Source: Rickettsiales bacterium
GTDB taxonomy: Bacteria; Pseudomonadota; Alphaproteobacteria; Rickettsiales; UBA3002
Assembly (NCBI GenBank): GCA_002725445.1
Contig: PBPD01000059.1
Coordinates: 1 to 33,370, forward strand
Direction: 5' to 3'
Length of the DNA: 33,370 bases
This document shows positions 2,911-30,375 of the stretch, in pieces (positions within the stretch are counted from its first letter, which is position 1; each line of letters begins with the position of its first letter). The notes under the pieces are model-generated. The model ran no database searches, was not told where the DNA came from, and saw only the letters and a list, made by a program, of their open reading frames with translations. Position numbers and translations under genes: made by a program.

Positions 2911-2926
2911 TAGCACTGCGCGTAAA

Positions 2927-2948
2927 CATATGCTATATATAGTATATG
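2927..2948. repeat. 22-bp AT-rich imperfect palindrome CATATGCTATATATAGTATATG overlapping the ATG of the 2946 ORF
   Basis: Read directly: 10 of 11 pairs are complementary and the mismatch is G/T. It shares the 11-nt core GCTATATATAG with the palindrome at 12204-12219. Confidence 0.8.
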
Positions 2949-4272: not shown

Positions 4273-4308
4273 ATCCCAAAAATAGTGCAGCCCATGGCAG
4301 AAGTAAAG

Positions 4309-5667
4309 CTATGCCGCGACGGCCTGACGAATTTTATCTTTGGTTTTGATGCGTGCAGACAGGCTGATCACCCGGTCTTTTGGCAGCATAACAGAGGCTT
4401 CGGTGCCTTTTTTGGTGCTGGTGATGCTGAGTGTTCCCTCATGCAGCGCGGTTAATTCGCGTGCGAGTGCCAGTCCGATGCCAATACCCTCAGATTCGGC
4501 CTGATAGTAAGATTGATCGGAGCTCAACGCCTCTTGAATGCTGCGCAATTTGGCGCTCGCAATGCCGCTGCCTGAATCGCAGACACGGAAAATAAAACGC
4601 CCGCGCCCGTCAATGTCGCCCTCAATAGCAATTTCATCGCCCTCGCTGCTATGCTCGATAGCATTGGCCAGCAAGTTGCTCAGGCAATGGGTTAACTTGA
4701 TACGGTCAGCACGCAACACCACCGCACGTTTGGCAAGCTCATTGCGCAAGCTGACCTGTTTGCTGAAAGCGGCGTGCGAGTGCATTTCGATCGCGGCATT
4801 CACAATGTCATTCACGTTAACGGGCAAATCATGCAATTCCATGCGCCCTACATCCATATTGGCGAGTTCTAACAGGTCGTTTACCCGGCTGAGCAGCAGG
4901 GTGCCGCTTTCCTGAATATTTTCAACATATTCGCTATAGGCCGCATTGTTCAATTTGCCAAACACTTCGGACTGGATCATCTGAGTGAAGCCAAGGATAG
5001 CATTGAGTGGGGTGCGTAGTTCGTGGCTCATGTTGGCGAGGAATTTAGAACGCGATTGCTCCGCCACGCGGCTGGCCGTTTGCGCTTGGTGCATGTCTTG
5101 CTGCACCTGCATATCGCTATCGATATTGCGCACAATCATGCCCAGACAACCATCATTATTGGCATGCTGCGCGGCGGGGACAAATTGCAGATTAAACCAG
5201 CTCCACGTCTCATCGCCATTGGCCATCTGAATCTGTATGTCATTTGGCAGGCCACTATGGCGAATGGAGCCTGTTCCGACGAATTGCTCCAACGCATTGA
5301 ACAGTTTGTTATGATAATCCGGGTGAATAAAGTCGAACCAGCCGGTGCCGTCGCATACATCTTTGGACAGGCGTGTGATATGCTCCCAGTTTTGAGAATG
5401 GTAGACGCAGCCCTCTATCGGGTGCCATACGCACATGGCCTGATTGCTATGCTCAAGCAATAGCGACTCATAGCCAATATCAATGGACGCGTCGCCCATC
5501 GCTGGCGGTTGAGGTGCTGCGCTTTGCTGCTCGGAGTTGTTCACTGTCACAGCGCTGCGCGACGAAGGTGCGCAAGCCTGCTGCTGAAAATCCAATAATT
5601 GCTTATAGTATTCCTGCCATAACAGCCAATACATAGTCCACATACCCAACGTTAAAAGTTCAAACAC
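4309..5667 (-). CDS. PAS-domain sensor histidine kinase
   Basis: H-box FLANMSHELRTPLNAILGF, N-box LSNLLANAIEHS, G-boxes DSGSGI and GIGIGLALAREL, and a PAS-like region upstream. The N-terminal hydrophobic segment is MFELLTLGMWTMYWLLW. The exact start is uncertain. Confidence 0.85.
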   Translation of the reverse strand: MFELLTLGMWTMYWLLWQEYYKQLLDFQQQACAPSSRSAVTVNNSEQQSAAPQPPAMGDASIDIGYESLLLEHSNQAMCVWHPIEGCVYHSQNWEHITRLSKDVCDGTGWFDFIHPDYHNKLFNALEQFVGTGSIRHSGLPNDIQIQMANGDETWSWFNLQFVPAAQHANNDGCLGMIVRNIDSDMQVQQDMHQAQTASRVAEQSRSKFLANMSHELRTPLNAILGFTQMIQSEVFGKLNNAAYSEYVENIQESGTLLLSRVNDLLELANMDVGRMELHDLPVNVNDIVNAAIEMHSHAAFSKQVSLRNELAKRAVVLRADRIKLTHCLSNLLANAIEHSSEGDEIAIEGDIDGRGRFIFRVCDSGSGIASAKLRSIQEALSSDQSYYQAESEGIGIGLALARELTALHEGTLSITSTKKGTEASVMLPKDRVISLSARIKTKDKIRQAVAA

Positions 5668-12077: not shown

Positions 12078-12164
12078 GCCCAGGTGGCGGAATTGGTAGA
12101 CGCGCTAGCTTCAGGTGCTAGTTCTCTTCGGGGAGTGGAGGTTCAAGTCCTCTCCTGGGCACCA
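12078..12164 (+). tRNA. tRNA-Leu (anticodon CAG), CCA encoded
   Basis: Acceptor stem GCCCAGG/CCTGGGC, discriminator A plus CCA, anticodon arm CTAGC-TTCAGGT-GCTAG (anticodon CAG), long variable arm, and T-loop GGTTCAAGTCC. 87 nt in total. Confidence 0.93.
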
Positions 12165-12244: not shown

Positions 12245-12694
12245 ATGATTTCTGAAGATGTTTTGCAGCAAGCGCGTGCTGAAGGCGCGCGTATTCAACA
12301 AGCCAGCGCGCAAAGCAATGGCTATAACATTGTCTATATTGGCTGGTCGGGCTGTTCCTCAACCCCCACGCATTTGGTGGCGCAATCATTAGCGCAACAA
12401 TTTGGCACAGGACTGGCTTTTGTGAATTACGAAGAGTCGGTGTTGGGCTGGCCGCGTGGCAGCATGCCGTTGCCCGAACTGCCAGGTCGTGAGCTGCATA
12501 TTGACCCGCGTCGCGTAGGATTGGACGGGCCAGGGCCGTATATCGCAATGGTAGATGATAGAGGTCGCGTGGTGCTATCGAATGTGCGCATTGAGGAAGC
12601 AGAAGAGCGCATTGCTGAAGTGATCGAGCGGCGTGGCGCATCTTTGCAGAATGAGGAGATGATGCCGCAACAAGCAGAGCGTGGGCGTGGATAA
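12245..12694 (+). CDS. Hypothetical cytoplasmic protein, possible monothiol thioredoxin-fold
   Basis: 149 aa from ATG 12245 (the ORF track starts at GTG 12236). The beta-alpha-beta pattern NIVYIGWSGCSSTPTHLVAQSLAQQFG..LAFVNY, then GPGPYIAMVDDRGRVVLSNV and a C-terminal helix, resembles a TlpA/thioredoxin-like fold with CSST replacing CxxC. No signal peptide. Confidence 0.55.
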   Translation: MISEDVLQQARAEGARIQQASAQSNGYNIVYIGWSGCSSTPTHLVAQSLAQQFGTGLAFVNYEESVLGWPRGSMPLPELPGRELHIDPRRVGLDGPGPYIAMVDDRGRVVLSNVRIEEAEERIAEVIERRGASLQNEEMMPQQAERGRG

Positions 12695-13529
12695 TACATC
12701 GCATGCAGCGGCTTCGCATGACCATTCGCAGCATCTGAACCCTTATCTGATTGGCGGAACAGCGGCGGCGAGTGGCGTAATGCTCGCGCCCTATGTGCTG
12801 CCATTTTTCAATATTGGAAATTTTCATCTAACGGGTGCATGGGCGCATATTCTGGAAGGTTCCAGTTATTTTGCCGAGGCTGGTTCGGCCTATTATGGTA
12901 CCGGCGTAGCAGGGGCGCTGATGGAAGGGCTTGCCGCTGTGCCGCTATTGGGGCAAGCGCTCACCTCGAGTGCTATCATTACCTTGCCGGGCATCGGCGT
13001 AGGCGTGGCTGCGGGTGTGCTTGCGAGTGTGACAGCGGTTGCAGGGTTGGCAATTGGCGGCACCTTATTGGCCAATTGGATGGAAAAGCGAGAAGATGAC
13101 ACTGATAAGATAAAATGGAGCAAGGTGGTGCGTTATGGCGCATTGGCCAGTAGCGCGCTCATTGCTATGCCACATATTCTGGGGGCACTGAGCCTCGGCA
13201 TTACGGCCATTGCCTTTGCTATGGGCGGAAATGCCGTGCTGGGTGGCACTATTTCGTTTCTGCAAGGCACGCTTGGTGCACCAGTTATGGAGCATGGCGC
13301 CGCTACCGGGTTGGCAGCAATGCTGGTGCCGCACCTTGCAACATGCGGGAGTATTGTCGCATCGTTTTTGGGCGGGCTTTTCTGGGAAGAGACGCTTAAA
13401 CGCCCCAAAGAAAGCGGGCAGGCTGTGGATATGGAAAGTGCGCCCCCCAAAGGTGAAGTGTCTGCCTGCCATGCGCAGCATCATGGGCGGGCGGTGACAT
13501 CCCATTCGCAGGCAATGGCCTGCGTTTAG
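12681..13529 (+). CDS. Gly/Ala-rich multi-pass membrane protein with His-rich N-terminus and His/Cys-rich C-terminus
   Basis: 282 aa with a GTG start overlapping the upstream ORF by 14 nt. About 5-6 hydrophobic segments carry glycine-zipper runs (GIGVGVAAGVLASVTAVAGLAIGG). The tails are SHAAASHDHSQH and SACHAQHHGRAVTSHSQAMAC. I recognise no family. Confidence 0.6.
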   Translation: MGVDNTSHAAASHDHSQHLNPYLIGGTAAASGVMLAPYVLPFFNIGNFHLTGAWAHILEGSSYFAEAGSAYYGTGVAGALMEGLAAVPLLGQALTSSAIITLPGIGVGVAAGVLASVTAVAGLAIGGTLLANWMEKREDDTDKIKWSKVVRYGALASSALIAMPHILGALSLGITAIAFAMGGNAVLGGTISFLQGTLGAPVMEHGAATGLAAMLVPHLATCGSIVASFLGGLFWEETLKRPKESGQAVDMESAPPKGEVSACHAQHHGRAVTSHSQAMACV

Positions 13530-14731
13530 GCTGCGTGTGCTGCCAGCTGTTGTTTCAGCTGCGTGGCGGCCAATGCATAGCCGCCGTTATTACCATCAAT
13601 AAAATGAATGTGCCCGTCGGAGGCGGTTGAGGTGACCAAACAGGTCATCAGCGCGCTGTCGGCCTGATGCATGCCATAGACAATGTGTCCGCGTGCATGC
13701 AGGTCTGCCAGATATTCCTCGATTTGCTGTAATTGCTCAGGCGTGCAGTCCAACACCATACGTAACATATCATCGAATTTACGGAAATCGGAATTGGTCA
13801 GCATATCCTTGCGGTATTGCACCACGTCGAAATTTCCGAGTTTGCCGTTGGTAAGATGAAGCACGTGGAACAGTGTGATCATGCCAATATGCCCCAGCAG
13901 TTGCTTCACAATATTGCCACGCTGCCAGACCATGCGGGCATTGCGCAATGCATGCCAGCCCGGCCATTGATAGCGCAAATGCGTTAGTGGTATGGCAGGT
14001 GTGCCATCATGCCCGATAATGTCTGCCATACGCTGGTTGATCTCGGAGTAAAGATTGTCGGCCCCGTCATTGAGCACCAGCACCAAAAGGCTGAGCATGC
14101 TGCCATGCGAGGTTTTGATAGGGTGCCACCGACAGGATAAACCGTCAAGATCAGGCTCCTCCGTCCCGTCATTCGCTTCAACTACATAGCCTTCATGCTT
14201 CACCAGATCGTCGGCGAGCCCTAAGCCGCCCCCGCGAAACATGGCCATTTCACAGCCTGTTTCCATGCGGTGTTTGGCCACACGCACCTGTTTGCCGCGC
14301 GCATAGACCTCGCTGATGGGCACATTGCCCACACGTAGTGACAGCCCATGCATACGCTGCGCAAATGTCTGCACGGCCAATAATTGGGCGATAACAGCAT
14401 CCACATAGGTTGGCGGCACGAGAAGGGTTGCGCCATCGCCACCAAACACATAGGGCAAGCGAATGCCCTTGCAGGTGTTCTGTGCTGCCGTAATGCAAGC
14501 CGCACCCACCATGTTTACCTGCTTGTAGCGTCCTTGCTGGATTGCTTTGGTTGAGCCAGCGACATCGGTTAGCAGTATATGCCAGTCATCTGGTGCAGCG
14601 ACATAATGGTCAGGCTTGCAGGCATCTGCAAAACGCGTGAATGGGGCAAGGTCTTCATAAAACCGGTTGAGCTGAGATGCAGACGGAGTAGAGGCAGGAG
14701 GGGTGGAAATAGGAGGATTAGAGGCAGGCAT
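13526..14731 (-). CDS. DUF3095 family protein (class III nucleotidyl cyclase-like N-terminal domain)
   Basis: FYEDLAPFTRF...PDDWHILLTDVAGSTKAIQQGRYKQVNMVGAA...PYVFGGDGATLLVP matches my recollection of DUF3095 and carries the two metal-Asp contexts of cyclase/GGDEF palm domains. Start is ATG 14731 or TTG 14740. It overlaps the upstream peptidase gene by 14-23 nt. Confidence 0.7.
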   Translation of the reverse strand: MPASNPPISTPPASTPSASQLNRFYEDLAPFTRFADACKPDHYVAAPDDWHILLTDVAGSTKAIQQGRYKQVNMVGAACITAAQNTCKGIRLPYVFGGDGATLLVPPTYVDAVIAQLLAVQTFAQRMHGLSLRVGNVPISEVYARGKQVRVAKHRMETGCEMAMFRGGGLGLADDLVKHEGYVVEANDGTEEPDLDGLSCRWHPIKTSHGSMLSLLVLVLNDGADNLYSEINQRMADIIGHDGTPAIPLTHLRYQWPGWHALRNARMVWQRGNIVKQLLGHIGMITLFHVLHLTNGKLGNFDVVQYRKDMLTNSDFRKFDDMLRMVLDCTPEQLQQIEEYLADLHARGHIVYGMHQADSALMTCLVTSTASDGHIHFIDGNNGGYALAATQLKQQLAAHAA

Positions 14732-15509
14732 CAGCACCAAGCAGTTGTTTGCATTTGGTGTTCAGAATCATGATCTTGGTAGCGACCTCACGGTCTTGCG
14801 ATTTGGATATATATTCGTTCAGTGCGGTAGGGTTGAGCAGGATATAGCTGAACAGCTCGGCGCGTTCTTCGTGCGGGAAGCTGCGCGCATAACCATTAAT
14901 GAAGCCCACACCGCCACTGCCAAAGCGGGTTTCGCCGGCTTTTTTGCCGTAACTGTTGTTGTAACCGGAAAAATGCTTATCCCACGTATTGTCGTTTTGT
15001 GAGTTGTTTTGCAGCTCAATCAGATGGTAAAGCTCGTGAAGCGAAGTGTAGGGTAGGCGTTGGCTGACTGCATTTTTGCCGGTGGCCAGCATCAACAGCT
15101 TGAGTGGTGGTACCGGAATACCGCCAATATCGCGCCCATTTGCCTGTGCGTTATTGCATAATAGCACATAGTCTAATTCGATGTTTTCCCACGCTTGTGC
15201 AGACAGTCGCGAAAACGCCATTTCTATTTGTTTCATGGCGGGTGCGATGGTGGCATTTTTGCTACCGCCACACATATATTTGCCGCTGCCCAGACTGGTG
15301 TCTTTCTCTACATAGGCCACATTGATCGCGCGCTTTCTCAGGGCGGGAGAGGGGCTGGCTAATTTCAGGTTTGGGACATAGAGTGCCTTGGCGGCTTGCT
15401 TCTCGGCGGCGGTCTGTTCAGCCGCTATTGCTCCGCCTGCATGAAGGCACAGTGCCCCGACAAAAGCTGTCAAAATAACTTTGTGTGATTTAATTGTGCT
15501 AAATATCAA
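14718..15509 (-). CDS. Secreted putative zinc metallopeptidase (HExxH, gluzincin-like)
   Basis: Signal peptide KVILTAFVGALCLHAGGAIAAEQ; HELYH at residues 158-162 (nt 15024-15038); downstream GFINGYARSFPHEERAELF resembles the GF.s.YA...EDfAE block of the 'putative zinc-binding metallopeptidase' families. The start is TTG. Confidence 0.6.
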   Translation of the reverse strand: MIFSTIKSHKVILTAFVGALCLHAGGAIAAEQTAAEKQAAKALYVPNLKLASPSPALRKRAINVAYVEKDTSLGSGKYMCGGSKNATIAPAMKQIEMAFSRLSAQAWENIELDYVLLCNNAQANGRDIGGIPVPPLKLLMLATGKNAVSQRLPYTSLHELYHLIELQNNSQNDNTWDKHFSGYNNSYGKKAGETRFGSGGVGFINGYARSFPHEERAELFSYILLNPTALNEYISKSQDREVATKIMILNTKCKQLLGADACL

Positions 15510-15601: not shown

Positions 15602-16936
15602 GTGAGCATTACTGTACAGAAGAATTTGGAGACATTACGCGCTGTTCTGCCCGAACAAAGCGACATGCCAGGATTGCCACCTGTGGTCTACGATGCGTTC
15701 ATCTCAGATGCGCGGCTTCGCCAGTCTCATATTGAGCGGCTGAATGAATTTCAGGGGTTGCTGGCTGGTGAGAAAAAAAGCGAATATCAGCAATTAGCAT
15801 TCACGCAGCTACGCAATGCGATGGGCTTGCGCGAGCCCGATGCCATGAAGCAAAGCTTCAGCGTGACCAAAGACCTGCTGGAGTTGGTGGCCGAGCATCC
15901 CACAGACGAACAGCCAGACGTCTTTAAGCAATTGCTAAAAGACATCAAAAACAAGGGCTATTACGTCGATAAGAGCCATGTCAAACACCATGTGGATCTA
16001 AACCGTGGTTGGGATGTGAGCTTTATGGTGGGTGGTTTTCTGGCGGCGAGCATTGCGTTGTTTTCAGCAGCGGTGACGCAGTTCTGGCCAGCGTGGTTCA
16101 ACTCTGGTTTGTCAGCCTATGCAGGCATTGGCCGGCTGGGGGCGCTTATAGACAAGTCCAAGCAGAAGCCAGAAATTATGCGGGAATATCCTGACCTTTT
16201 CGACATGGCTGCGATGGAAAGTTATACCGAACACCGTTTGGAAATGGCATTCCGACCGTTGGAGCGTTTCCGGCACGACTTGGTGGAGAATGCATCCGTA
16301 TGCGCGGAAATGCAGGATAATTACCGGCTGGATAGCGATGTATTTGCGACTATCGCAGCAGTTGATATGCTGATTCGTCTTTCGCATAAAGCGCCATCGC
16401 GTGCGGTGAAGCTATTGCAATTGCCAACCAGTGCGCCTGCCAGTGACGCGGAAGGTATTTTAAGTCCGACACAGGTGTTCACGCCTCATTCTTCGGAGGA
16501 AGAAGCTGAAAGCGAAACGTTGCGTATTGAAGAAGCGCTACGCGAGCGATTCAACTATAAATCCACTTCGGAAGCCGTCATTGACGGTTTGAAAACAGAA
16601 TTCCGCCTGATGGGCGTAGATATGAGCAAAGAAAAACATCCAGACTATGATGTCACCTCGCCCACACGTTTTAGAGAAGTCTCCCCTAAAATTAAAAAAA
16701 TTGCCGACGAATGCGCGACCGCTTTCCTGACGGCGAACGCGAACCGCGATATGCCGTTAATGATGAATATCTTGCTGCCTGATGCAGATCAGCTGCCCAA
16801 GGGTAAGCACGCAGATGTATTGATTGAACGTTTGAGTGAAACGCTGCAGCGTCTGGCGATTGCTATTCAGCATGACAGACGCCACGAATTCACAGGACCT
16901 GAAAAGGCAGAATCAACGGTGGCTATGCAGCGTTAG
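15602..16936 (+). CDS. Hypothetical protein with central hydrophobic hairpin (membrane-anchored?)
   Basis: 444-aa ORF with a GTG start and no convincing SD. The only recognisable feature is a hydrophobic stretch FMVGGFLAASIALFSAAVTQFWPAWFNSGLSAYAGIGRLGAL (about residues 150-192). No known motifs. Confidence 0.55.
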   Translation: MSITVQKNLETLRAVLPEQSDMPGLPPVVYDAFISDARLRQSHIERLNEFQGLLAGEKKSEYQQLAFTQLRNAMGLREPDAMKQSFSVTKDLLELVAEHPTDEQPDVFKQLLKDIKNKGYYVDKSHVKHHVDLNRGWDVSFMVGGFLAASIALFSAAVTQFWPAWFNSGLSAYAGIGRLGALIDKSKQKPEIMREYPDLFDMAAMESYTEHRLEMAFRPLERFRHDLVENASVCAEMQDNYRLDSDVFATIAAVDMLIRLSHKAPSRAVKLLQLPTSAPASDAEGILSPTQVFTPHSSEEEAESETLRIEEALRERFNYKSTSEAVIDGLKTEFRLMGVDMSKEKHPDYDVTSPTRFREVSPKIKKIADECATAFLTANANRDMPLMMNILLPDADQLPKGKHADVLIERLSETLQRLAIAIQHDRRHEFTGPEKAESTVAMQR

Positions 16937-17023: not shown

Positions 17024-20000
17024 ATGACGATGATGAGCGGATCGCCTCGCGAACTTTTATCCAGTGATGCACGCGAAGTTGCACATTATCTGGTGCAGCA
17101 ATATGTAACGCAATTAGCAAATGCGCACCCGGAGATAGCTAATCACATTCGTGATTTGGAGGCGGTGACGCTGGATGCAAAAAATCCGAATGGCACCAGT
17201 AAAGAGGCGTTGCAGGCACAAAAAGATGCTACGTTCAAACATGTGCTTGACGATGTGAAATCCCTTCAAGACAAGCGCACATTGATTGATGCGTATGCAA
17301 AAATGGGGCACCTAAACGACCTTGGCGGGCTGATCGCGCGCGAGAATTATCTGCGTAATTACCGCGTGGATGGCCGCACAGCGGCACCAGGCGGTCCGGG
17401 AGGGCCTGAAGAATTCGTGCATAAGAGCCGCGAGTCACTGGATCAGCTGATTGAGCGTTTTAATAGCCCTGCCTTTGAAATCGTGATGACAGCGCACCCG
17501 ACCAGTGTGAACTCTCAGGAATTATCCGCGAGTTTACGTGAGGTAGGAAAAGCGGCAGATGCACTGCGTCGTCAGGAGCGCGACGGTAATTATGGTGACA
17601 CACGTGGTTTGCAACAAGCATTGGCGCATTTTGCTGACGTAACCCTTTTGCCGCATGACAGGGTGGAAGGGCCAGACGGGCAGGTGAGTATTAAAGAGCG
17701 GAATCTGGGGGTGGAAGATGAAACCCGCATGGTGCTCTATCATCTGGGTACAATTTATGAGGATTTGCCGCAAGTATACCGTCATTTTGATCAGGCGCTG
17801 GAGCGAAAAAACGCAGATTATAATCCGTTAGCCCTTAACCTTAAGATGCGTTTCTCATCATGGGGTTCATCGGGTGATAAGGACGGCAATGCCAAAGTGA
17901 ATGCAGATACTACCATGAGCGCTATTGCCTTGCACCGTATGGCATTGGCAGAGCATTATCTGCAAGATATCGAAGCGGTGAAAGTGCCCGCCGCTTATGC
18001 AAACCAATGGCAGCATTGGCAGGCGACCTTGCAGGAAGTGAAGCAGGGTTATAAAGCGCTGCATGATAAGCTGGCGTCCTCGCAGGGCATTGATGCCGCA
18101 CATTTCGAGGAATATCAAAAGCAACTGCAAGCGCTTGAAGGTGCATTTGATGCGGATGCGTTGAAAAACAACCTGGAAGAAATATACGAATCCGCGCGAA
18201 CGTCAGAGCCGGAATTTGCACAACACACACTTAATCTGCTGCGCCGGGTGCGCACATTCGGCAGTAGTTTTGCACGCATTGAGTATCGTGAAACGGCCGA
18301 GGAATATACGCGTATCATAGAATATCTCGTGCCGGGCTACAAAGAGATGGACGAATCCGGGCGTGTGCAAGCGTTGGGTGATATTCTGCAAACCCCGGGC
18401 AAGGCGAAAGAATTGTTGCAGGCGAAGTGGTCAGAGATCCGATCAGGCGGGCCGCAAAAACCCTATAGCAATGACAATGTGTTGCCGATTGCCTACCACA
18501 CGATTAGACGCATGGAGCTAGCGCGCGATTGCCCTAGCATGGTGACGGATAATGTGCTGGCTGAATGTGAAACCACCAGCAATCTGCTTGAGGCGGTGTT
18601 TTTGCAGCAGGCAGTCGAAGCCAATGGTAAGCGGGCGGAGTTGGGTGTAGTGCCATTGTTTGAGTCGCCTGAAGTAATGCCGCATGTGGGCGAGATTATG
18701 GGACGAGCGTACGATAACACGGCCTATCAACAACATTTGGCGCTGCTGCAACAAAAACAGGGTGCAGACAAACCCGTCCAGCAAGTGCAGCTGGCGCATA
18801 GCGATAACACTCGCCGCGCAGGCCTGCCTGCCGCCCGTGCGTTCATTCATCAGGCGCATGATTTGTTACGCACGGCAGGCAAGGAGCATGGCATTCAGAC
18901 GCAATTCTTCCAAGGCGGCAGTATGTCCGACCCATATCGCGGTGGTGTGCGCGCACCTACGGCATTGGTGAACCAGTTCCACGTGTATGACTTCCTGAAA
19001 TTCACCTTTCAGGGCGGGGATAACCTCAATTATTTCAACTATCCAGGCTCAACCGAGCGCTTGTTTGCGCGTAGCATGACGCATATGGCCAAGCATTATG
19101 ATGACGAAGTGCAAATGCTGGCAGGGGAGACGTGGGATTCTATTAATGCGGCGGTTACCAAGGCCTTGCAGTCTACATGCGATGATTACCAGCAGGAGGT
19201 GTTCCAGAAAGAAAAGCTGGGTACCATCATGGGCGTCCTGCAAGATGCGCAGCGTGGTGCGGGCACGGTTGGCTCACGTGCAAAGGCGCGTAGTGGTCCG
19301 GCATTTGGCAAAGTTGATTCGGTGTCGGTGGGTAAGGTGCAGGCCGTTGATGTACGCAATGTACGCACTATCACCTTTAGTGAGATTTTACAGCATGGCG
19401 GTATTGTGCCGACATGGTTGGGCGCTTACACGCTGGAAGACGAGCTGAACAAAGCCTTAAATGATATACCTGAAGGCCAAAAATTATTGGCACCTGCGGA
19501 AGGTGGGGATAAAGGCGTGTTGTCAGCCCCCGCTTTCCAGAAACTTTATAAGGAGTCACCCGTATTCCGTGATGTGATGGATCGCGTTATGTATGGTGTG
19601 GTAACGAGTGATTTGGACGGACTGGCCGCACGGCACGAGCAAGTGCGTAACGATGCATTCTTTCAGCAACGCCTGATGCCCGAATATAAACAGGCGGCGC
19701 GCATGGCATATGCTGCGCTGACAGGCCGTTTCCCAGCGCCAGAGCAGATGCAGGAAGCCAGCAGTTTGCGCGATGCTGTGTTGGATGAAATGCCGCACTC
19801 AAAGGCTGTGTTAACCAATAAGCTCGCCTATGCCGAATTTGCGCAGGCGGCGAGGGATGATTGGAACAAACAGCTGAAAGAGAATCCGCCGCAGGATGAG
19901 CAACAAAGTAGCCTGGTCAATAGTATCTTCCAGCGCATTCATGCCGCGCTTGATATTGTGACCCATGGACGCAACCCTACCATTGATGACATACGTTACG

Positions 20001-20032
20001 GGCAGGCGCTGACTGGTGGCAAGCAGCGGTAA
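17024..20032 (+). CDS. Highly divergent phosphoenolpyruvate carboxylase (PEPC) family homologue with degenerate signature motifs
   Basis: 1002 aa with SD AAGGA upstream. It is colinear with PEPC: VMTAHPTS (canonical VLTAHPTE), SSWGSSGDKDGNAKVNADTT (SWMGGDRDGNPNVTA), RIEYRETA (RIDIRQES), VVPLFES (PLFET), QLAHSDNTRRAG (IGYSDSAKDAG), FFQGGSMSDPYRGGVRAP (FHGRGGSIGRGGAP), GSRAKAR (GSRPAKR), RTITFSEILQHGG (RAIPWIFAWTQNR). There is no C-terminal NTG. Confidence 0.75.
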   Translation: MTMMSGSPRELLSSDAREVAHYLVQQYVTQLANAHPEIANHIRDLEAVTLDAKNPNGTSKEALQAQKDATFKHVLDDVKSLQDKRTLIDAYAKMGHLNDLGGLIARENYLRNYRVDGRTAAPGGPGGPEEFVHKSRESLDQLIERFNSPAFEIVMTAHPTSVNSQELSASLREVGKAADALRRQERDGNYGDTRGLQQALAHFADVTLLPHDRVEGPDGQVSIKERNLGVEDETRMVLYHLGTIYEDLPQVYRHFDQALERKNADYNPLALNLKMRFSSWGSSGDKDGNAKVNADTTMSAIALHRMALAEHYLQDIEAVKVPAAYANQWQHWQATLQEVKQGYKALHDKLASSQGIDAAHFEEYQKQLQALEGAFDADALKNNLEEIYESARTSEPEFAQHTLNLLRRVRTFGSSFARIEYRETAEEYTRIIEYLVPGYKEMDESGRVQALGDILQTPGKAKELLQAKWSEIRSGGPQKPYSNDNVLPIAYHTIRRMELARDCPSMVTDNVLAECETTSNLLEAVFLQQAVEANGKRAELGVVPLFESPEVMPHVGEIMGRAYDNTAYQQHLALLQQKQGADKPVQQVQLAHSDNTRRAGLPAARAFIHQAHDLLRTAGKEHGIQTQFFQGGSMSDPYRGGVRAPTALVNQFHVYDFLKFTFQGGDNLNYFNYPGSTERLFARSMTHMAKHYDDEVQMLAGETWDSINAAVTKALQSTCDDYQQEVFQKEKLGTIMGVLQDAQRGAGTVGSRAKARSGPAFGKVDSVSVGKVQAVDVRNVRTITFSEILQHGGIVPTWLGAYTLEDELNKALNDIPEGQKLLAPAEGGDKGVLSAPAFQKLYKESPVFRDVMDRVMYGVVTSDLDGLAARHEQVRNDAFFQQRLMPEYKQAARMAYAALTGRFPAPEQMQEASSLRDAVLDEMPHSKAVLTNKLAYAEFAQAARDDWNKQLKENPPQDEQQSSLVNSIFQRIHAALDIVTHGRNPTIDDIRYGQALTGGKQR

Positions 20033-20038
20033 TACAGG

Positions 20039-21685
20039 CTATTTTCGTGTGGTATGCAGGCTTAGGAGTTCTTCCAGCATATCCCGGTCAATTGGTTTGG
20101 TGATGAAGTCATTCATGCCAGAGGTAAAGGAGCGCTCTTTTTCTTTCTGTGTAGCATAGGCCGTCATTGCAATAATGGGGGTTTGCTTCAGATTGTTTTC
20201 TTTTTCCCAAGCGCGGAATTGTTCCGTTATCCGGTAGCCTTCCATATCGGGTAAGCGAAGATCCATAAGGATCGCGTTGTAACGTTGGCCTTTCAATAGA
20301 TCCAGCGCTTCTTTACCTGTTTTGGCGATGTCGTAGCTATAGCCAAAGTCGTCCAGCAATAAGCTCGCCACCAGAATATTCGCATCGGTATCTTCAACGA
20401 GAAGAACATGGTTGTCGGTGGTTTTTTGGGCGGACATTTTTTGCGCGGCATCATCTTGCGTCGTCGTATCATCGCTCGCAGCCTGTTTCAAAGGTAGCTG
20501 AATAGTAAAGCACGTGCCTTCTCCTACGGTGCTTACCACATCTATGTGGCCAGCCATCTGCTCTATCAGCTCTTTGCTGATAGCCAGCCCAAGCCCTGTG
20601 CCGCCGTATTGGCGGTTGATCGAGTTATCGGCTTGCGTGAATTTTTTGAATAAATCTTCCAGTTTAGCGTTATCGATACCTACGCCCGTATCTTGAATCG
20701 CGATGGATATATTATAAACGTCGTCCCTTTTTTGTTCGCCATCAACAGACACAGAGATCCGTCCCTCGTCGGTGAATTTTATGGCGTTGTTAATGAGGTT
20801 TAGTAACACTTGGCGGATGCGGGTTGGGTCGCCGACGTAAGTATTGGGCAGAGATGTTTTATGGTATAATTCAATGCCTAGCTTTTTCTCCTCCGCTTTG
20901 ATGCGCATGATCCCAATGGATTCGTCTATAATATTCATTAAATCAAATCTGATATGCTCCAGCTCCATTGATTGAGCTTCGATTTTTGAGAAGTCGAGTA
21001 CATCATTAAGCAGGCTCATAAGGGCTTTTGCGCTATCGCTTAGAGTTTCCGCATATTGGCGTTCTTTTTCGCCGGGCAAGTTACTTTGCGCTAAGCGTTC
21101 TGACAGTAAAACTACTGCATTCATAGGTGTACGAATTTCATGGCTGATATTAGCCAGAAACTCACTCTTGGCATCGCTGGCTGCTTCTGCTCTGCGGCGT
21201 GCGGAGGCCAGCTCTTTATTCGCATCAGCCAGTTCTTTCGTTCGTTGCTTTACACGGCTTTCTACTAAAGTGTATGCATCCTGTAGATCCGCATTCATTT
21301 GCTGCAATTGCTTGGGGCTTGGTAGTTTAATGGCAGATGGCAAAATGCGCCATATGACCAAAGCGGTCAGGGCGGATATGCCGCCGGTTGCCAGTTTAAT
21401 CAGCCCTTCAATGCCATAATACGGATACCATAGCACCATTATGCCAAACAAATGTGTTAAGCCGCATAGGGTAATAAATGACGCAAACATAAGAAATAGT
21501 GGACGAAAGGGCATGTCTGGCCGTTTTTTGGCAAATACCCATAAGGCAAGCGGTATGCTGAAATAAGCAGTAGCGATTAGCAAATCCGCCACGACGTGAA
21601 GCCATACAATTTCAGGCAACCACAGGAAGCAGTAGCCATGAGGCATCATAAAGTTACTACTGAAAAACTGCTCGAAACGTTCCAT
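20039..21685 (-). CDS. Hybrid sensor histidine kinase/response regulator with N-terminal ethylene-binding-domain-like (ETR1-type) membrane sensor
   Basis: N-terminus VADLLIATAYFSIPLALWVFAKKRPDMPFRPLFLMFASFITLCGLTHLF versus Arabidopsis ETR1 [49 protein letters not shown]. The Cys and His of the Cu(I) site are conserved (C74, H78). A coiled coil follows, then H-box ISHEIRTPMNAV, the HATPase G-boxes, and a C-terminal REC domain (VLLVEDTDANI...ILMDLRLPDMEG). Confidence 0.85.
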   Translation of the reverse strand: MERFEQFFSSNFMMPHGYCFLWLPEIVWLHVVADLLIATAYFSIPLALWVFAKKRPDMPFRPLFLMFASFITLCGLTHLFGIMVLWYPYYGIEGLIKLATGGISALTALVIWRILPSAIKLPSPKQLQQMNADLQDAYTLVESRVKQRTKELADANKELASARRRAEAASDAKSEFLANISHEIRTPMNAVVLLSERLAQSNLPGEKERQYAETLSDSAKALMSLLNDVLDFSKIEAQSMELEHIRFDLMNIIDESIGIMRIKAEEKKLGIELYHKTSLPNTYVGDPTRIRQVLLNLINNAIKFTDEGRISVSVDGEQKRDDVYNISIAIQDTGVGIDNAKLEDLFKKFTQADNSINRQYGGTGLGLAISKELIEQMAGHIDVVSTVGEGTCFTIQLPLKQAASDDTTTQDDAAQKMSAQKTTDNHVLLVEDTDANILVASLLLDDFGYSYDIAKTGKEALDLLKGQRYNAILMDLRLPDMEGYRITEQFRAWEKENNLKQTPIIAMTAYATQKEKERSFTSGMNDFITKPIDRDMLEELLSLHTTRK

Positions 21686-21906: not shown

Positions 21907-23823
21907 ATGGCAGAACAGCGTAAGACGGCATTTGCGAAAACGGATAGCACCAGTGTGGGTAAGACCCTGGATGCGGGTCGTCTTGAGTCGTTTCAACGTA
22001 CCGTTTTTCACAATAATGCCGATCTGTTGCGTGCAACCACGCCTGCTGCGCTACATCCTTATTTAGAACCGTGGCTGCAAGCGGGACAGACATGGCTTGA
22101 TTTCTGGTTTGGTGGTAGCAGTAACACGCCAACACCGAAAACAGAACATTCGGCAGGGACTGAGAATTATAAGTTTGTTAAGCGTGCAACGATGGCGTGG
22201 ATGCTGCAAACGCCGCCTCAATACCGTCCTTATATCCGTTATTTTCTAATCGATAATCCTGCTACATCGCAAATGCTGAACACCGGCAACATGGCAACAA
22301 TAATGGACGCGGTGGGAGATTGGTATGGCGGCAAGGATGCGCTGCAAGCACGTAATGGGCAATTTGTTACGCATAATAAAGACGGATCACTCAACGAAAC
22401 ATTACCCTCGCAAGTGACCCAACTGTTCGACCCCAAAACACCTCAGAAATGGCCTAATTTGGTGCTTACCTGCACTCACGCACTGGCAGGTGAAGACGCG
22501 GATCTCTCGCAGATTATGAAGGGCATGCATGCGCTCACGCGCCATTTATACGGCAAGCCCTTATCGCTAGCGCGACATGTGCAGCCAGGCAAAGATTATG
22601 CTGGCAAGGCGATCATGTTGGCGGCAAGCCATACGGAAGATAATGCATGGAAAAATGGCGCGGCCATGATTCGCCGTTATAACACATTGAAAGAGCGTGA
22701 TCCGGACGTGCCGTCCGCACAAGACTGGCAGGATATAGCGCCACATGCTCAGCGATTGGCTCTGTTGATGTTGAGCGCCCTTGTGACCGAACCGGAGCGG
22801 GTGGATGTCAGCCAGCCCGATGCTACGATTGCCGCTTTGCAACGGGCAGACGCCCCGCTTACATTGCGGCTAGATGCCGCGCGGGTAGCGCAACATTTCA
22901 CGCTTATGGGCTATAGTAAGGGCGGTAATGTGGTGACAGATGCGGTGCGCTATCTGGTGCATTGCTTGCAGAGCGAGCAGGATGCAGGCCTTGGGCTTGT
23001 GCGCGTGGATGGGCAGGCCGCAGGCGCGGCCGCACCGTCGCAAGCGGTTATCAGTAATATCGTAAAGAATGTGGGTTTGCTGTCGATTGCCGCTGGCGAG
23101 GTGCCGCTGAGCGAACGTGAGAAGGCGTTTGGTATGCGCCGCACAACCATCATTAACGACAAAGACATAATCGCAGGGCATTTCAGAGCAGGGCAGGAAG
23201 ACGCATTTGGCCAGCATGACGATTTTTATCTGGTGAAGGGCACAGGCCGCCGCGGTGGGCATGACCCTGATCACGCCCTGGGCGTGGATGATAAAATCGG
23301 CTATATCGTTGGTAATGATACGTTCCCCAGCGACCCGCGCGTGATCGACAGGCTGAAAGTGCTGTTCGCGCCGATGTACAAGCGTACTGCTATCGCCGAT
23401 GTGGCGTTTATGCCTGCTGAGGATGACAAACCCGCACATTTGCTTTTGGAGCGAGGGCCGGGCATTGCCGATGCCGCATTTGCCAAGCGCATACCAGAGA
23501 TAGAACGGGCGTTGCAAAAAGCAGGCGTTGCCGGTGCGCGGCTGGAGTGTAGAGGTGGCGAGAGCGGGGTGTGTGAAATAAAGGCCGATATTGATGTGCT
23601 GGAAGACCCTGTAGCCATTAATGCGCTCAAGCGAGGCTTCGAGCAATTAAAGGCTCAAGCCAAAGGGCTGTTTATATCTGAGCAGGTTTTTGCCGAAATT
23701 GACCGTCACTGCGACCGACTGATGCCTGGCAATAAGGTGCATGAGGTGGATGCAGGCACGCGCCATGTGCTGCGTGCAGGGCGTGCGCATGGTGAAGGGG
23801 CAGGGCTTGGTAGCGGCAGCTAA
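21907..23823 (+). CDS. Large hypothetical protein with alpha/beta-hydrolase-like serine nucleophile elbow (GYSKGG)
   Basis: 638 aa. FTLMGYSKGGNVVTDAV (S337, nt 22915-22917) fits GxSxG after a beta-strand. Candidate acid and His residues lie downstream (IINDKDIIAGH, GGHDPDHALG). I do not recognise the roughly 330-aa N-terminal region or the C-terminal 150 aa. Confidence 0.6.
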   Translation: MAEQRKTAFAKTDSTSVGKTLDAGRLESFQRTVFHNNADLLRATTPAALHPYLEPWLQAGQTWLDFWFGGSSNTPTPKTEHSAGTENYKFVKRATMAWMLQTPPQYRPYIRYFLIDNPATSQMLNTGNMATIMDAVGDWYGGKDALQARNGQFVTHNKDGSLNETLPSQVTQLFDPKTPQKWPNLVLTCTHALAGEDADLSQIMKGMHALTRHLYGKPLSLARHVQPGKDYAGKAIMLAASHTEDNAWKNGAAMIRRYNTLKERDPDVPSAQDWQDIAPHAQRLALLMLSALVTEPERVDVSQPDATIAALQRADAPLTLRLDAARVAQHFTLMGYSKGGNVVTDAVRYLVHCLQSEQDAGLGLVRVDGQAAGAAAPSQAVISNIVKNVGLLSIAAGEVPLSEREKAFGMRRTTIINDKDIIAGHFRAGQEDAFGQHDDFYLVKGTGRRGGHDPDHALGVDDKIGYIVGNDTFPSDPRVIDRLKVLFAPMYKRTAIADVAFMPAEDDKPAHLLLERGPGIADAAFAKRIPEIERALQKAGVAGARLECRGGESGVCEIKADIDVLEDPVAINALKRGFEQLKAQAKGLFISEQVFAEIDRHCDRLMPGNKVHEVDAGTRHVLRAGRAHGEGAGLGSGS

Positions 23824-29160: not shown

Positions 29161-30375
29161 ATGACCGAAGCCCTCGAATCGCGCATTGCCCAGTTGGAAG
29201 CCCAGCTAGCCGCTCTTTCAACTCAGTCCGCTCCTGAAGCCGACCACGACGCTGCCGTGCAGGAAATGACCGACGAACTGGTCGCCAGCCTGTCCGATTT
29301 TGGGCCTATTCAGCCTTTGCTGGAAGATGATTCCATAAACGATATTCTTATCAACGGTGCTAAGCAGATCTATGTAGAGCGCAATGGCCGTTTGGAGCTG
29401 ACCGATGTCACCTATCCCGATGAGGCGGCAGTACTGGAGATAGCCGATAAGATTGTGCGTATGGTGGGGCGTAGCCTGAACCGTAACCGTCCCTTGGTTG
29501 ATGCGCGTCTGAGTGATGGTAGTCGTGTGAATATTATTGCGCCACCGCTGGCGGTGGATGGCACATCCATCTCGATTCGTAAATTCGCCAAGAATATTAT
29601 CACGCTGGACGCGATGCGCGATCAGCAGAATGTGTCGCAGGCCTTGTGCGATTTTCTGAAAGTAGTTGGGCGTTGCCGCCTGAATGTAATGATCTCCGGC
29701 GGTACCGGTTCTGGTAAGACGACATTGCTTAATGCGGTGTCGCAAAATATTGATGATTGGGAGCGCGTGGTTACCATCGAGGACGCCGCCGAATTGCGCT
29801 TGCAGCAGCCGCATGTGGTACGCCTGGAAACCAAGCCGGTGTCATTTGGCCGCAGGCGCGAGGAAGAAGTCTCGATGCGTGATCTGGTGAAAAATGCGCT
29901 GCGTATGCGCCCTGACCGCATTATCGTGGGTGAGGTGCGTGGTGCCGAAGCATTCGACATGATGCAAGCCATGAATACGGGCCATGAAGGCTCACTTACC
30001 ACCATCCACGCCAACCACCCGCGCGATGCGTTGTCACGTTTGGAGAATATGATCAATATGGCGAATCTGAATTTGCCGATGAATTCAATTCGCTATCAGA
30101 TATCTTCGGCGATTAATTTGATTATTCAGGTCAGCCGCATGCGCGATGGCCACCGCCGCATCACCTACGTGTCCGAGATTGTGGGTATGGAAGGCGATAC
30201 CATTACTATGCAGGATTTGTTCACCTATAATATTGCCGGTGAAGGCGCTGACGGCAAACTACAAGGCCAGTTCGAATGGACAGGTATTATGCCGCGCTTT
30301 ATTCGCCGGGCAGCGTATTATGGTGAGGCTGACAGGCTGGCAAATGCGCTGGGCGTAAAATTGCCTGCAATGTAG
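29161..30375 (+). CDS. CpaF/TadA-family secretion ATPase (type II/IV secretion NTPase), orphan
   Basis: INDILINGAKQIYVERNGRLE..., Walker A ISGGTGSGKTTLLNA, Asp box VVTIEDAAEL, Walker B RPDRIIVGEVRGAEAFDM, His box NTGHEGSLTTIHAN. No tadB/tadC, pilin or secretin genes are in the window. Confidence 0.85.
   Translation: MTEALESRIAQLEAQLAALSTQSAPEADHDAAVQEMTDELVASLSDFGPIQPLLEDDSINDILINGAKQIYVERNGRLELTDVTYPDEAAVLEIADKIVRMVGRSLNRNRPLVDARLSDGSRVNIIAPPLAVDGTSISIRKFAKNIITLDAMRDQQNVSQALCDFLKVVGRCRLNVMISGGTGSGKTTLLNAVSQNIDDWERVVTIEDAAELRLQQPHVVRLETKPVSFGRRREEEVSMRDLVKNALRMRPDRIIVGEVRGAEAFDMMQAMNTGHEGSLTTIHANHPRDALSRLENMINMANLNLPMNSIRYQISSAINLIIQVSRMRDGHRRITYVSEIVGMEGDTITMQDLFTYNIAGEGADGKLQGQFEWTGIMPRFIRRAAYYGEADRLANALGVKLPAM

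What the first reader, a model, noticed from the sequence alone, without database searches (positions are those of the whole stretch)
17024..20032. PEP carboxylase homologue in which almost every family signature is altered
The protein is colinear with bacterial PEPC over its whole length but carries many substitutions. They are TAHPTE->TAHPTS (residues 156-161), GGDRDGNP->SSGDKDGNA (282-290), RQES->RETA (422-425), GYSDSAKD->AHSDNTRR (591-598), FHGRGGSIGRGG->FFQGGSMSDPYRGG (628-641, His lost and the Gly/Arg loop remodelled), RAIPWIFAWTQNR->RTITFSEILQHGG (781-793), and loss of the C-terminal NTG. The metal-ligand contexts PLFE(S) and HSD are kept. That pattern (metal/PEP-phosphate site retained, bicarbonate/carboxyphosphate-handling loop changed) suggests a neofunctionalised enzyme or pseudoenzyme, not the housekeeping anaplerotic PEPC. 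The canonical motifs are quoted from my memory of E. coli Ppc.
Basis: partly seen in the sequence, partly recalled or inferred. Interest (0 to 1): 0.7.

Follow-up and report, generated by a model that had tools for sequence, protein, structure and literature searches.

The report
Deep-branching, rewired PEP carboxylase lineage
This gene encodes a full-length relative of phosphoenolpyruvate carboxylase from a large, uncharacterised sister family found only in uncultured Alphaproteobacteria; it has lost the textbook bacterial/plant signature motifs but keeps nearly every residue shared by all proven PEP carboxylases, so it is most likely still a carboxylase, not a dead or repurposed enzyme.

Summary
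Both PEPC signature patterns fail.

The substitutions are not decay. They are invariant or nearly invariant across a family of at least 183 sequences in the two searches, all from metagenomes or MAGs. The family separates from canonical PEPC with 100/100 bootstrap support.

The AlphaFold model (pLDDT 92.6) matches PEPC crystal structures over the full length.

The key test was a comparison with archaeal-type PEPC. Archaeal-type PEPCs also lack E141, G540, K546, D547, H579, R581, E612, E615 and W717. Of 27 positions conserved in both known PEPC types, 20 are kept at 90% or more in the family. Only two are consistently replaced, both conservatively (G582S, A714T). The kept positions include H138, W248, E506, D543, R587, Q613 and R713; R703 is kept less strictly (73 of 81).

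The aspartate allosteric residues are gone.

Neighbouring genes, where conserved, belong to the TCA cycle: NADP-isocitrate dehydrogenase lies directly upstream in five divergent loci.

Best reading: a genuine, non-aspartate-regulated PEPC of a previously undescribed deep type. Neofunctionalisation is not excluded. A pseudoenzyme is unlikely.

The parts
17024..20032 (+). PEPC-family gene of the divergent 'AHSDNxRR' type (1002 aa from ATG 17024; probable start ATG 17030, 1000 aa)
   Evidence: Intact ORF. Pfam PF00311 at 164 bits. AlphaFold pLDDT 92.6 and pTM 0.94. Foldseek best hits are plant and E. coli PEPC, TM 0.64-0.73 over the full length. Start-site reasoning.
17489..17506 (+). Residues 156-161, TAHPTS: catalytic His158 (E. 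coli H138) kept, E141 replaced by S (N in 74 of 81 family members)
   Evidence: Archaeal-type PEPC also has N here (TQHPDN).
17861..17893 (+). Residues 280-290, WGSSGDKDGNA: W280 (E. coli W248, hydrophobic-pocket residue) kept; GGDRDGNP remodelled to SSGDKDGN
   Evidence: K at E. coli position 253 is shared with archaeal-type PEPC.
18281..18298 (+). Residues 420-425, EYRETA: R422 (E. coli R396) invariant; the flanking residues are family-specific invariants (E420, E423, A425)
18653..18667 (+). Residues 544-548, PLFES: metal ligand E547 (E. coli E506)
   Evidence: Invariant in the family, in bacterial-type PEPC and in archaeal-type PEPC.
18794..18823 (+). Residues 591-600, AHSDNTRRAG: metal ligand D594 (E. 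coli D543) kept; G540A, Y541H, S544N, K546R and D547R are family invariants
   Evidence: Archaeal-type PEPC reads ARSDPAxNYG, so G540, Y541, K546 and D547 are not universal.
18905..18952 (+). Residues 628-643, FFQGGSMSDPYRGGVR: remodelled Gly-rich catalytic loop; R639 (E. coli R587) kept; H579 is Q here (E in most members), R581 is G, with extra residues inserted
   Evidence: The archaeal-type loop IIGVGGAPFRG likewise lacks H579 and R581.
19004..19021 (+). Residues 661-666, TFQGGD: T661 and Q663 (E. coli T611, Q613) kept; E612F and E615G
   Evidence: Archaeal-type PEPC reads T-[IV]-Q-S-[AS].
19271..19402 (+). Residues 750-793: GSRAKAR (R752 = E. coli R699, R756 = R703), a disordered lid loop (759-769, pLDDT below 50), then RTITFSEILQHGG (R781 = R713, I783 = I715)
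19958..20029 (+). C-terminus ...VTHGRNPTIDDIRYGQALTGGKQR: the family motif HGR...DDP.Y replaces the bacterial/plant ...GMRNTG end

Best explanation
The gene encodes a catalytically competent phosphoenolpyruvate carboxylase of a deep, previously undescribed lineage. It has the large bacterial/plant-type architecture (about 1000 aa, all-helical shell around a beta-barrel) but a rewired second shell in the active site.

Inferred mechanism, by homology. Mg2+/Mn2+ is held by E547 and D594. The PEP phosphate is held by R422, R752 and R781. The Gly-rich loop arginine R639 and the lid-loop arginine R756 close over the carboxyphosphate intermediate. H158 abstracts its proton, so that CO2 is released next to the enolate in the W280/L545 pocket, giving oxaloacetate and Pi.

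The residues that bind the allosteric inhibitor aspartate in E. coli Ppc (K773, R832, N881) are absent. The enzyme is therefore predicted not to be aspartate/malate-inhibited in the E. coli manner.

Its proposed role is anaplerotic supply of oxaloacetate to the TCA cycle in an uncultured alphaproteobacterial lineage that NCBI labels 'Rickettsiales' or 'Alphaproteobacteria bacterium'.

What is shown: homology, fold, which residues are kept, family-wide conservation, and gene neighbourhoods. What is inferred: catalytic activity, the substrate pair, lack of aspartate regulation, and the physiological role.
For: 1. Full-length PEPC fold. AF2 gives pLDDT 92.6 and pTM 0.94. The Foldseek top 50 are all PEPC, TM 0.61-0.73.

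2. The universal core is kept. Of 122 columns at least 93% conserved in bacterial-type PEPC, 27 are also conserved in 25 archaeal-type PEPCs. Of these 27, 20 are at least 90% kept in the family, and only G582S and A714T are consistently replaced. The kept set includes T136, H138, P139, W248, P503, L504, E506, S542, D543, G549, G580, R587, T611, Q613, R713 and I715. R703 is kept in 73 of 81 members. By contrast, only 22 of the 95 bacterial-type-only invariants are kept.

3. The residues 'lost' in the family are also absent from archaeal-type PEPC: E141N, G540A, K546L/M, D547N, H579I/L/V, R581V/L/A, E612I/V, E615A/S and W717F. Independent MAFFT and hhalign alignments agree. The archaeal-type sequences were verified as PF14010, full length, 600-720 bits.

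4. Strong purifying selection. There are 44 invariant and about 70 nearly invariant columns across 79 sequences with 23% mean column identity.

5. The family is large and coherent. 183 sequences from the two searches carry its motifs against 44 canonical. All 42 hits among GTDB species representatives are alphaproteobacterial or Pseudomonadota MAGs. The window's RpoN has its nearest relatives in MAGs with the same labels. This is consistent with vertical inheritance as a core gene.

6. Neighbourhoods point to central carbon metabolism.
- NADP-isocitrate dehydrogenase (NF006156, about 720 bits) lies 55-76 nt upstream on the same strand in five loci whose PEPC-type proteins are only 40-51% identical to each other.
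- tkt-gap lies directly upstream in L002.
- sdhA is divergently adjacent and nadC is downstream in L005.
- A beta-carbonic anhydrase lies 0.7 kb upstream in three closely related loci.

7. Some deep branches of the family still carry R581 or H579 together with AHSDNxRR. The loss of these residues therefore happened inside an otherwise continuous family.
Against: No member has been assayed, and all come from uncultured organisms.

The family has its own strictly invariant residues at active-site positions: E420, E423, H592, N595, R598, S633, D636, R643 and D666. These differ from both known PEPC types, so a changed substrate or a changed step is not excluded.

Archaeal-type PEPC may compensate for missing R581 and H579 with residues elsewhere in its fold, and this family might not share those.

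I could not test whether the same genomes also carry a canonical ppc or a pyruvate carboxylase.

The gene neighbourhood is not conserved across the family as a whole: no neighbour family is shared by more than 8 of 47 loci. In the window itself the neighbours are an orphan ORF and a histidine kinase.

The NCBIfam equivalog threshold is missed by a wide margin.
Confidence: 0.6

Rival explanations
1. Neofunctionalised enzyme. The protein still binds a metal and PEP (or a similar phospho-enol or 2-oxo acid) but catalyses something other than bicarbonate-dependent carboxylation. Possibilities are a different electrophile, PEP hydrolysis, oxaloacetate decarboxylation, or a lyase-type reaction on the metal-stabilised enolate.
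For: The family-specific invariants line the catalytic loops and differ from both known PEPC types: E420, E423, H592, N595, R598, S633, D636, R643 and D666. The Gly-rich loop is lengthened and gains an invariant Asp (D636). The stem branch separating the family from canonical PEPC is long (1.08 substitutions per site, 100/100 bootstrap). Neither PEPC signature pattern matches in 80 of 80 members. The NCBIfam equivalog score is a fifth of the cut-off.
Against: All residues shown by mutagenesis or structure to be central to carboxylation and conserved in both PEPC types are kept: H138, R587, E506 and D543, plus R396, R699, R703 and R713. The positions that changed are ones archaeal-type PEPC also lacks. 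No neighbouring genes suggest a specialised pathway. Where linkage is conserved, it is to icd, sdhA or tkt-gap. The gene behaves as a stand-alone core gene, as ppc does.
Confidence: 0.3
2. Pseudoenzyme or regulatory or structural protein. The PEPC fold is kept for a non-catalytic role, for example as a partner subunit or a metabolite sensor.
For: The classical signatures and the aspartate site are lost. The score against curated PEPC models is very low.
Against: Metal ligands, the catalytic His and all phosphate-binding arginines are invariant in 81 of 81 members, even though overall identity is only 30-42%. Pseudoenzymes typically lose exactly these residues. No conserved partner gene is present.
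Confidence: 0.06
3. Artefact. The apparent substitutions come from a shifted alignment, sequencing errors or a decaying pseudogene in this one contig.
For: None beyond the a priori possibility. One related locus (L026) does have a split gene.
Against: The ORF is intact. Three independent alignments agree (phmmer, MAFFT, hhalign). The same residues recur in 80 or more independent metagenomic sequences.
Confidence: 0.01

Closest known systems
Bacterial/plant-type PEP carboxylase (bpPEPC; E. coli Ppc, PDB 1FIY/1JQN; Pfam PF00311)
   Same: Same size and full-length fold (TM 0.64-0.73) and colinear over the whole length (hhalign score 488, 839 columns). The following are kept: catalytic H138; metal ligands E506 and D543; R396, R587, R699, R703 and R713; W248 and L504; T611 and Q613.
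   Different: Only 17-19% identity. The signature motifs TAHPTE, GGDRDGNP, GYSDSxKD and FHGRGGxxGRGG and the C-terminal NTG are all altered. The aspartate-site residues K773, R832 and N881 are not conserved. Only 22 of 95 bacterial-type-specific invariant positions are kept. The score is far below the NCBIfam equivalog cut-off.
Archaeal-type PEP carboxylase (atPEPC/PepcA; Pfam PF14010)
   Same: It shares the universal catalytic core. It also shares several states that differ from bpPEPC: N after HPT/HPD (position 141), K253, A540, F717, an aromatic residue before the loop Arg ([PA]-[FY]-R-G), and the absence of H579, R581, K546, D547, E612, E615 and the NTG end. It lacks the bpPEPC inhibitor-site residues (PMC8100219).
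   Different: atPEPC is half the size (about 475-530 aa against 1002). The PF14010 match is below threshold (17.6 against 25 bits). Profile-profile similarity is marginal (hhalign score 26-57) compared with 488 to bpPEPC. This family is a sister of bpPEPC, not of atPEPC.
Plant 'bacterial-type' PEPC (BTPC) and other recognised PEPC classes (review PMC8100219 lists bacterial, BTPC, PTPC and atPEPC)
   Same: They are divergent PEPC subtypes within the large-enzyme architecture.
   Different: BTPC keeps the canonical catalytic motifs (my own knowledge; not tested here). The present family does not. It is not among the four types listed in the review, and a text search found no paper describing it.

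Membership tests
Bacterial/plant-type PEPC (PF00311 / NCBIfam NF000584) | Pfam PF00311 match above the gathering score | tested here: met
   164.3 bits against a cut-off of 22.4, E 4.4e-48. The match covers only residues 59-730 and profile positions 35-708 of 919.
Bacterial/plant-type PEPC (PF00311 / NCBIfam NF000584) | NCBIfam equivalog NF000584 score above the curated cut-off (functional equivalence) | tested here: not met
   154.5 bits against a cut-off of 815.
Bacterial/plant-type PEPC (PF00311 / NCBIfam NF000584) | Full-length PEPC fold | tested here: met
   AF2 pLDDT 92.6. Foldseek against the PDB: all top hits are PEPC, TM 0.61-0.73, about 1050 aligned columns.
Bacterial/plant-type PEPC (PF00311 / NCBIfam NF000584) | Signature patterns [VTI]-x-T-A-H-P-T-[EQ]-x(2)-R-[KRHAQ] and [IVLC]-M-[LIVM]-G-Y-S-D-S-x-K-D-[STAG]-G (PROSITE patterns, recalled from memory) | tested here: not met
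   Neither pattern matches the query or any of 80 family members. Both match E. coli Ppc, and they match 36 and 28 of 38 canonical hits.
Bacterial/plant-type PEPC (PF00311 / NCBIfam NF000584) | Gly-rich loop FHGRGGxxGRGG with H579 and R581 | tested here: not met
   The query has FFQGGSMSDPYRGG. Across the family, H579 is E or Q in 79 of 81 and R581 is G in 81 of 81. R587 is kept in 81 of 81.
Bacterial/plant-type PEPC (PF00311 / NCBIfam NF000584) | Aspartate/malate allosteric site (E. coli K773, R832, N881; roles from established literature) and the C-terminal NTG | tested here: not met
   K773 is variable (R22, L21, M13, K7 of 81). R832 is K or Q. N881-T-G is absent.
PEP carboxylase in the broad sense (EC 4.1.1.31, both known types) | Residues conserved in both bacterial/plant-type and archaeal-type PEPC (catalytic His, two metal ligands, loop Arg, lid Arg, R713, W248, Q613 and others) | tested here: met
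   20 of 27 such columns are at least 90% kept. Five more are partly kept or ambiguous (V259, G588, G697, R703, and P687, which is gapped). Only G582S and A714T are consistently replaced. The alignment was cross-checked by hhalign.
PEP carboxylase in the broad sense (EC 4.1.1.31, both known types) | Catalyses PEP + HCO3(-) to oxaloacetate + Pi | not testable with these tools
   No family member comes from a cultured organism, and no paper on the family was found. An enzyme assay or complementation is needed.
Archaeal-type PEPC (PF14010) | PF14010 match above the gathering score; size of about 55-60 kDa | tested here: not met
   17.6 bits against a cut-off of 25, covering residues 530-728 only. 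The protein is 1002 aa. Genuine atPEPCs fetched here score 600-720 bits.

The most novel reading that the evidence does not exclude
The 'AHSDNxRR' family is not a carboxylase. It would then be a new enzyme activity built on the PEPC scaffold: a metal-dependent, PEP-enolate-forming enzyme that uses a different co-substrate or outcome. It would be widespread in an uncultured alphaproteobacterial lineage and would be the first functional radiation out of the PEPC superfamily.
Probability: 0.25. Interest if true: 0.75.

Novelty: new variant of a known kind. Interest (0 to 1): 0.42.

Why it matters
Reviews recognise four PEPC types: bacterial, plant-type, plant 'bacterial-type' and archaeal-type (PMC8100219). 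This family would be a further deep lineage. It counts at least 183 sequences in the two searches here, all from uncultured bacteria.

It keeps only about a quarter of the residues that are invariant in bacterial/plant PEPC, yet it keeps nearly all residues shared with archaeal PEPC. This gives a natural experiment that defines the minimal catalytic core of PEPC. It suggests that H579, R581, K546, D547, E612, E615 and the NTG tail are lineage-specific and dispensable for the chemistry.

The family is also a candidate aspartate-insensitive PEPC, a property sought in metabolic engineering of C4-acid production.

Practically, curated equivalog models miss the family. Metabolic reconstructions of these MAGs may therefore wrongly report that an anaplerotic route is missing.

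If the family instead proves not to carboxylate, it would be the first new activity on the PEPC fold.

Tried and rejected
1. A conserved operon as a functional clue. ORFs from 47 loci were clustered, and no neighbour family occurs in more than 8 loci. The window's own neighbours (444-aa and 638-aa ORFs) have no homologue in the other loci.

2. The upstream 444-aa ORF as a partner. It is an orphan in 5.8e9 proteins.

3. Carbonic anhydrase linkage as evidence for bicarbonate use. It occurs in only three closely related loci (carbonic anhydrases 85-88% identical), so it is weak evidence.

4. The idea that D547R compensates for R581G as a strict swap. Deep-branch members carry both R547 and R581, so there is no simple swap.

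5. The idea that the family is intermediate between the archaeal and bacterial types. hhalign places it clearly with the bacterial type (score 488 against 26-57), and it is no closer to atPEPC than bpPEPC is. Only six bacterial-type-invariant positions share the archaeal state, roughly what chance would give.

6. Primary literature on catalytic residues. Ettema 2004, Patel 2004 and Dharmarajan 2011 are not held. Residue roles therefore rest on PMC11832675 (His138, His579, Arg587), PMC10176493, PMC8100219 and my own knowledge of Kai et al. 2003.

7. Organism names for the deep-branch members. None were available.

8. Promoter and terminator scan around the gene. Nothing above the shuffled expectation.

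9. The first NJ tree runs failed. One timed out and one had saturated distances to atPEPC. The analysis was redone without the outgroup.
Full report
**What is there**

The window carries an intact ORF at 17024..20032 on the + strand (1002 aa). A GAAGGA box lies 5-6 nt before the ATG at 17030, and the database copy P0001 starts there, so the real product is probably 1000 aa.

The protein matches Pfam PEPcase PF00311 (E 4e-48, 164 bits), but only over residues 59-730. It scores 154.5 bits against NCBI's PEPC equivalog model, whose cut-off is 815. E. coli Ppc (1FIY) is the best solved relative at E 2e-14.

**Check of the observation**

I aligned the protein with E. coli Ppc (taken from NC_000913), 38 canonical PEPC hits and 80 closer relatives.
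- TAHPTS at 156-161
- SSGDKDGNA at 282-290
- RETA at 422-425
- AHSDNTRR at 591-598
- FFQGGSMSDPYRGG at 628-641
- RTITFSEILQHGG at 781-793
- no C-terminal NTG
- PLFE and HSD retained

The phmmer alignment and the hhalign alignment give the same register, so the by-eye alignment was not shifted. The two PEPC signature patterns (recalled from PROSITE) match E. coli Ppc and most canonical hits. They match neither the query nor any of 80 relatives.

**It is a family, not a one-off**

The 5.8-billion-protein search returned 81 relatives at 30-42% identity (360-720 bits). There was then a cliff down to canonical PEPC at 84 bits or less and about 24% identity.

A profile of 79 of these sequences (A1) was searched against 1.84 billion representatives. 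About 145 of the best 150 hits were of the same kind, reaching down to deep branches at 220-400 bits. By motif, the union of both searches holds 183 family-type sequences, 44 canonical ones and 6 fragments or unclear cases. The motif distribution is bimodal.

The substitutions are family invariants rather than decay. A591, H592, S593, D594, N595, R598, G631, G632, S633, D636, R639, G641, Q663, G664, D666, E420, R422, E423 and A425 are each identical in 79 of 79 aligned sequences. The mean column identity of that alignment is only 23%.

An NJ tree on 769 columns splits the family from bacterial-type PEPC in 100 of 100 bootstraps. The stem branch is 1.08 substitutions per site. Identity is 42% within the core clade, 25% to the deep branches and 19% to canonical PEPC.

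**Who has it**

All 42 hits among 185,579 GTDB species representatives are MAGs. They are labelled Rickettsiales, Alphaproteobacteria, Pseudomonadota, 'Azospirillum' or Rhodospirillaceae.

The window itself is an ordinary alphaproteobacterial chromosome segment. It carries pdhC-lpd, a COQ9-like gene, glycosyltransferases, tRNA-Leu and the cluster lptC-lptA-lptB-rpoN-hpf-ptsN-short hprK-EIIA(Man). The nearest relatives of its RpoN (at most 63% identity) are MAGs with the same labels. The gene therefore looks like a vertically inherited core gene of an uncultured lineage.

**Fold**

AlphaFold2 with the family alignment gives pLDDT 92.6 and pTM 0.94. The only disordered stretches are residues 1-4, 697-699 and 759-769. 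The last of these corresponds to the mobile active-site lid of canonical PEPC.

In a Foldseek search of the PDB, all top hits are PEPC from maize, Arabidopsis, Flaveria and E. coli. TM-scores are 0.61-0.73 over about 1050 columns at 16-18% identity. This covers the C-terminal 270 residues that Pfam does not match.

**The decisive comparison**

Archaeal-type PEPC (atPEPC) is a second lineage, described in the literature as functionally verified (PMC8100219, citing Ettema 2004 and Patel 2004). It therefore shows which residues PEPC chemistry really needs.

I fetched atPEPC genes from metagenomes by scanning for their N-terminal MSTQHPDN motif and extracted 78 full-length ORFs. Four were checked and proved to be full-length PF14010 at 600-720 bits. 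I then aligned 25 of them with 16 bacterial-type, 20 core-family and 17 deep-branch sequences. hhalign confirmed the register from PLFE through RAI.

atPEPC also lacks most of the residues reported as lost:

| E. coli position | atPEPC state | Family state |
|---|---|---|
| E141 | N | N |
| G540 | A | A |
| Y541 | R | H |
| K546 | L/M | R |
| D547 | N | R |
| H579 | I/L/V | E/Q |
| R581 | V/L/A | G |
| E612 | I/V | F |
| E615 | A/S | G |
| W717 | F | F |

The atPEPC loop reads G-V-G-S-x-P-F-R-G. The family loop reads G-G-S-x-S-D-P-Y-R-G-G.

The comparison can be put in numbers:
- 122 columns are at least 93% conserved in bacterial-type PEPC.
- 27 of these are also conserved in atPEPC.
- 20 of those 27 are at least 90% kept in the family. 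They include T136, H138, P139, W248, G251, P503, L504, E506, S542, D543, G549, G580, R587, T611, Q613, Y668, R713, I715, P729 and G733.
- Five more are partly kept or ambiguous. R703 is kept in 73 of 81 members.
- Only G582S and A714T are consistent replacements, and both are conservative.
- Of the 95 columns invariant only in bacterial-type PEPC, the family keeps just 22. These include R396 and R699.

[quoted passage not shown] 1991; Yano et al. 1995, as cited in PMC11832675). H138 and R587 are invariant here. H579 is the one that atPEPC also lacks.

Some deep branches of the family still have R581 (FEGRS) or H579 together with AHSDNxRR. These residues were therefore lost inside an otherwise continuous family.

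**Regulation**

The residues that bind the inhibitor aspartate in E. coli Ppc are K773, R832 and N881 (established knowledge; Kai et al. 1999 and 2003). They are not conserved in the family. K773 is R, L, M or K; R832 is K or Q; the NTG end is absent. atPEPC also lacks the bacterial-type inhibitor residues (PMC8100219). I predict an enzyme that is not aspartate-inhibited in the E. coli manner.

**Genomic context**

Across the family there is no conserved operon. No neighbour family is shared by more than 8 of 47 loci. The window's own neighbours are an orphan 444-aa ORF upstream and a convergent ETR1_N hybrid histidine kinase.

Where linkage does recur, it is to central carbon metabolism:
- NADP-isocitrate dehydrogenase (NF006156, about 720 bits) lies 55-76 nt upstream on the same strand in five loci (L010, L028, L029, L031, L032). 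Their PEPC-type proteins are only 40-51% identical to one another.
- tkt-gap lies immediately upstream in L002.
- sdhA is divergent and nadC is downstream in L005.
- A beta-carbonic anhydrase lies nearby in three closely related loci, which is weak evidence.

This pattern suits an enzyme of the PEP-pyruvate-oxaloacetate node.

**Interpretation**

The best-supported reading (about 0.6) is a genuine PEP carboxylase of a deep, undescribed lineage. It has the bacterial-type architecture, the universal catalytic core, a rewired second shell and no aspartate site.

Neofunctionalisation (about 0.3) cannot be excluded. The family has its own invariant charged residues in the catalytic loops (E420, E423, H592, N595, R598, D636, R643, D666). 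No member has been assayed, and I could not test whether the same genomes also carry a canonical ppc.

A pseudoenzyme (about 0.06) is unlikely, because all catalytic and ligand-binding residues are invariant at 30-42% overall identity.

An artefact is excluded.

**Comparison with known families, and novelty**

The protein passes Pfam's PEPcase threshold and has the PEPC fold. It fails the NCBIfam equivalog cut-off, both signature patterns, the canonical Gly/Arg loop, the aspartate site and the NTG end.

It is not an archaeal-type PEPC. PF14010 scores 17.6 bits against a cut-off of 25, the protein is twice the size, and hhalign scores 26-57 against atPEPC compared with 488 against the bacterial type.

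A full-text search found no description of such a family. The PEP-pyruvate-oxaloacetate-node review lists only four PEPC types. Some MAG records already label members 'phosphoenolpyruvate carboxylase'.

I therefore rate it a new variant of a known kind, of moderate interest. Its value lies in defining the minimal PEPC core and in offering a possibly feedback-insensitive PEPC. Interest would be higher if an assay shows it does not carboxylate.

Noticed in passing
window 15602..16936 (+): A 444-aa ORF lies 87 nt upstream of the PEPC-type gene on the same strand. It has no Pfam or NCBIfam family, no homologue in 47 related loci, and only itself among 5.8 billion proteins. It is an orphan, and it is unclear whether it is expressed.
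   Followed up: yes
window 20039..21685 (-): A hybrid histidine kinase with an N-terminal ethylene-receptor-like domain (ETR1_N, PF25487, E 3e-35), followed by HisKA, HATPase and a receiver domain. It is convergent with the PEPC-type gene, and the two stop codons are only 6 nt apart. A 40%-identical homologue lies near the PEPC-type gene in L039.
   Followed up: partly
window 21907..23823 (+): A 638-aa ORF with no Pfam family and no homologue in the related loci.
   Followed up: partly
window 29161..30375 (+): A T2SSE-type secretion/pilus ATPase (PF00437) is inserted between rpoN and hpf, in an otherwise typical alphaproteobacterial lptC-lptA-lptB-rpoN-hpf-ptsN-short hprK-EIIA(Man) cluster.
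   Followed up: no
window 13526..14740 (-): A full-length DUF3095 protein (PF11294, E 2e-117). It is flanked by ORFs with no family (12681..13529 and 14718..15509) and lies just downstream of tRNA-Leu(CAG) at 12078..12164.
   Followed up: no
L026 2004..5323: In this MAG contig the PEPC-type gene is split into two overlapping ORFs (2004-3371 and 3326-5323). The cause is a frameshift, pseudogenisation or an assembly error.
   Followed up: no
L016, L019, L020, L021, L024, L026, L040 (directly upstream of the PEPC-type gene): A conserved 120-130-aa protein with a signal peptide and a C-terminal ...Y.PD.S....ARP...M..Y...F motif sits immediately upstream on the same strand in seven loci. It has no Pfam family and is absent from the window.
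   Followed up: partly
deep-branch proteins P0162, P0180, P0196, P0210, P0220, P0224: Deep members of the family carry mixed motif states. Examples are TxHPTE with AHSDNxKR, or FEGRS (R581 kept) with AHSDNxRR. Many are 1100-1400 aa long. They may record the stepwise route from the canonical to the rewired active site. Their source organisms are unknown.
   Followed up: partly
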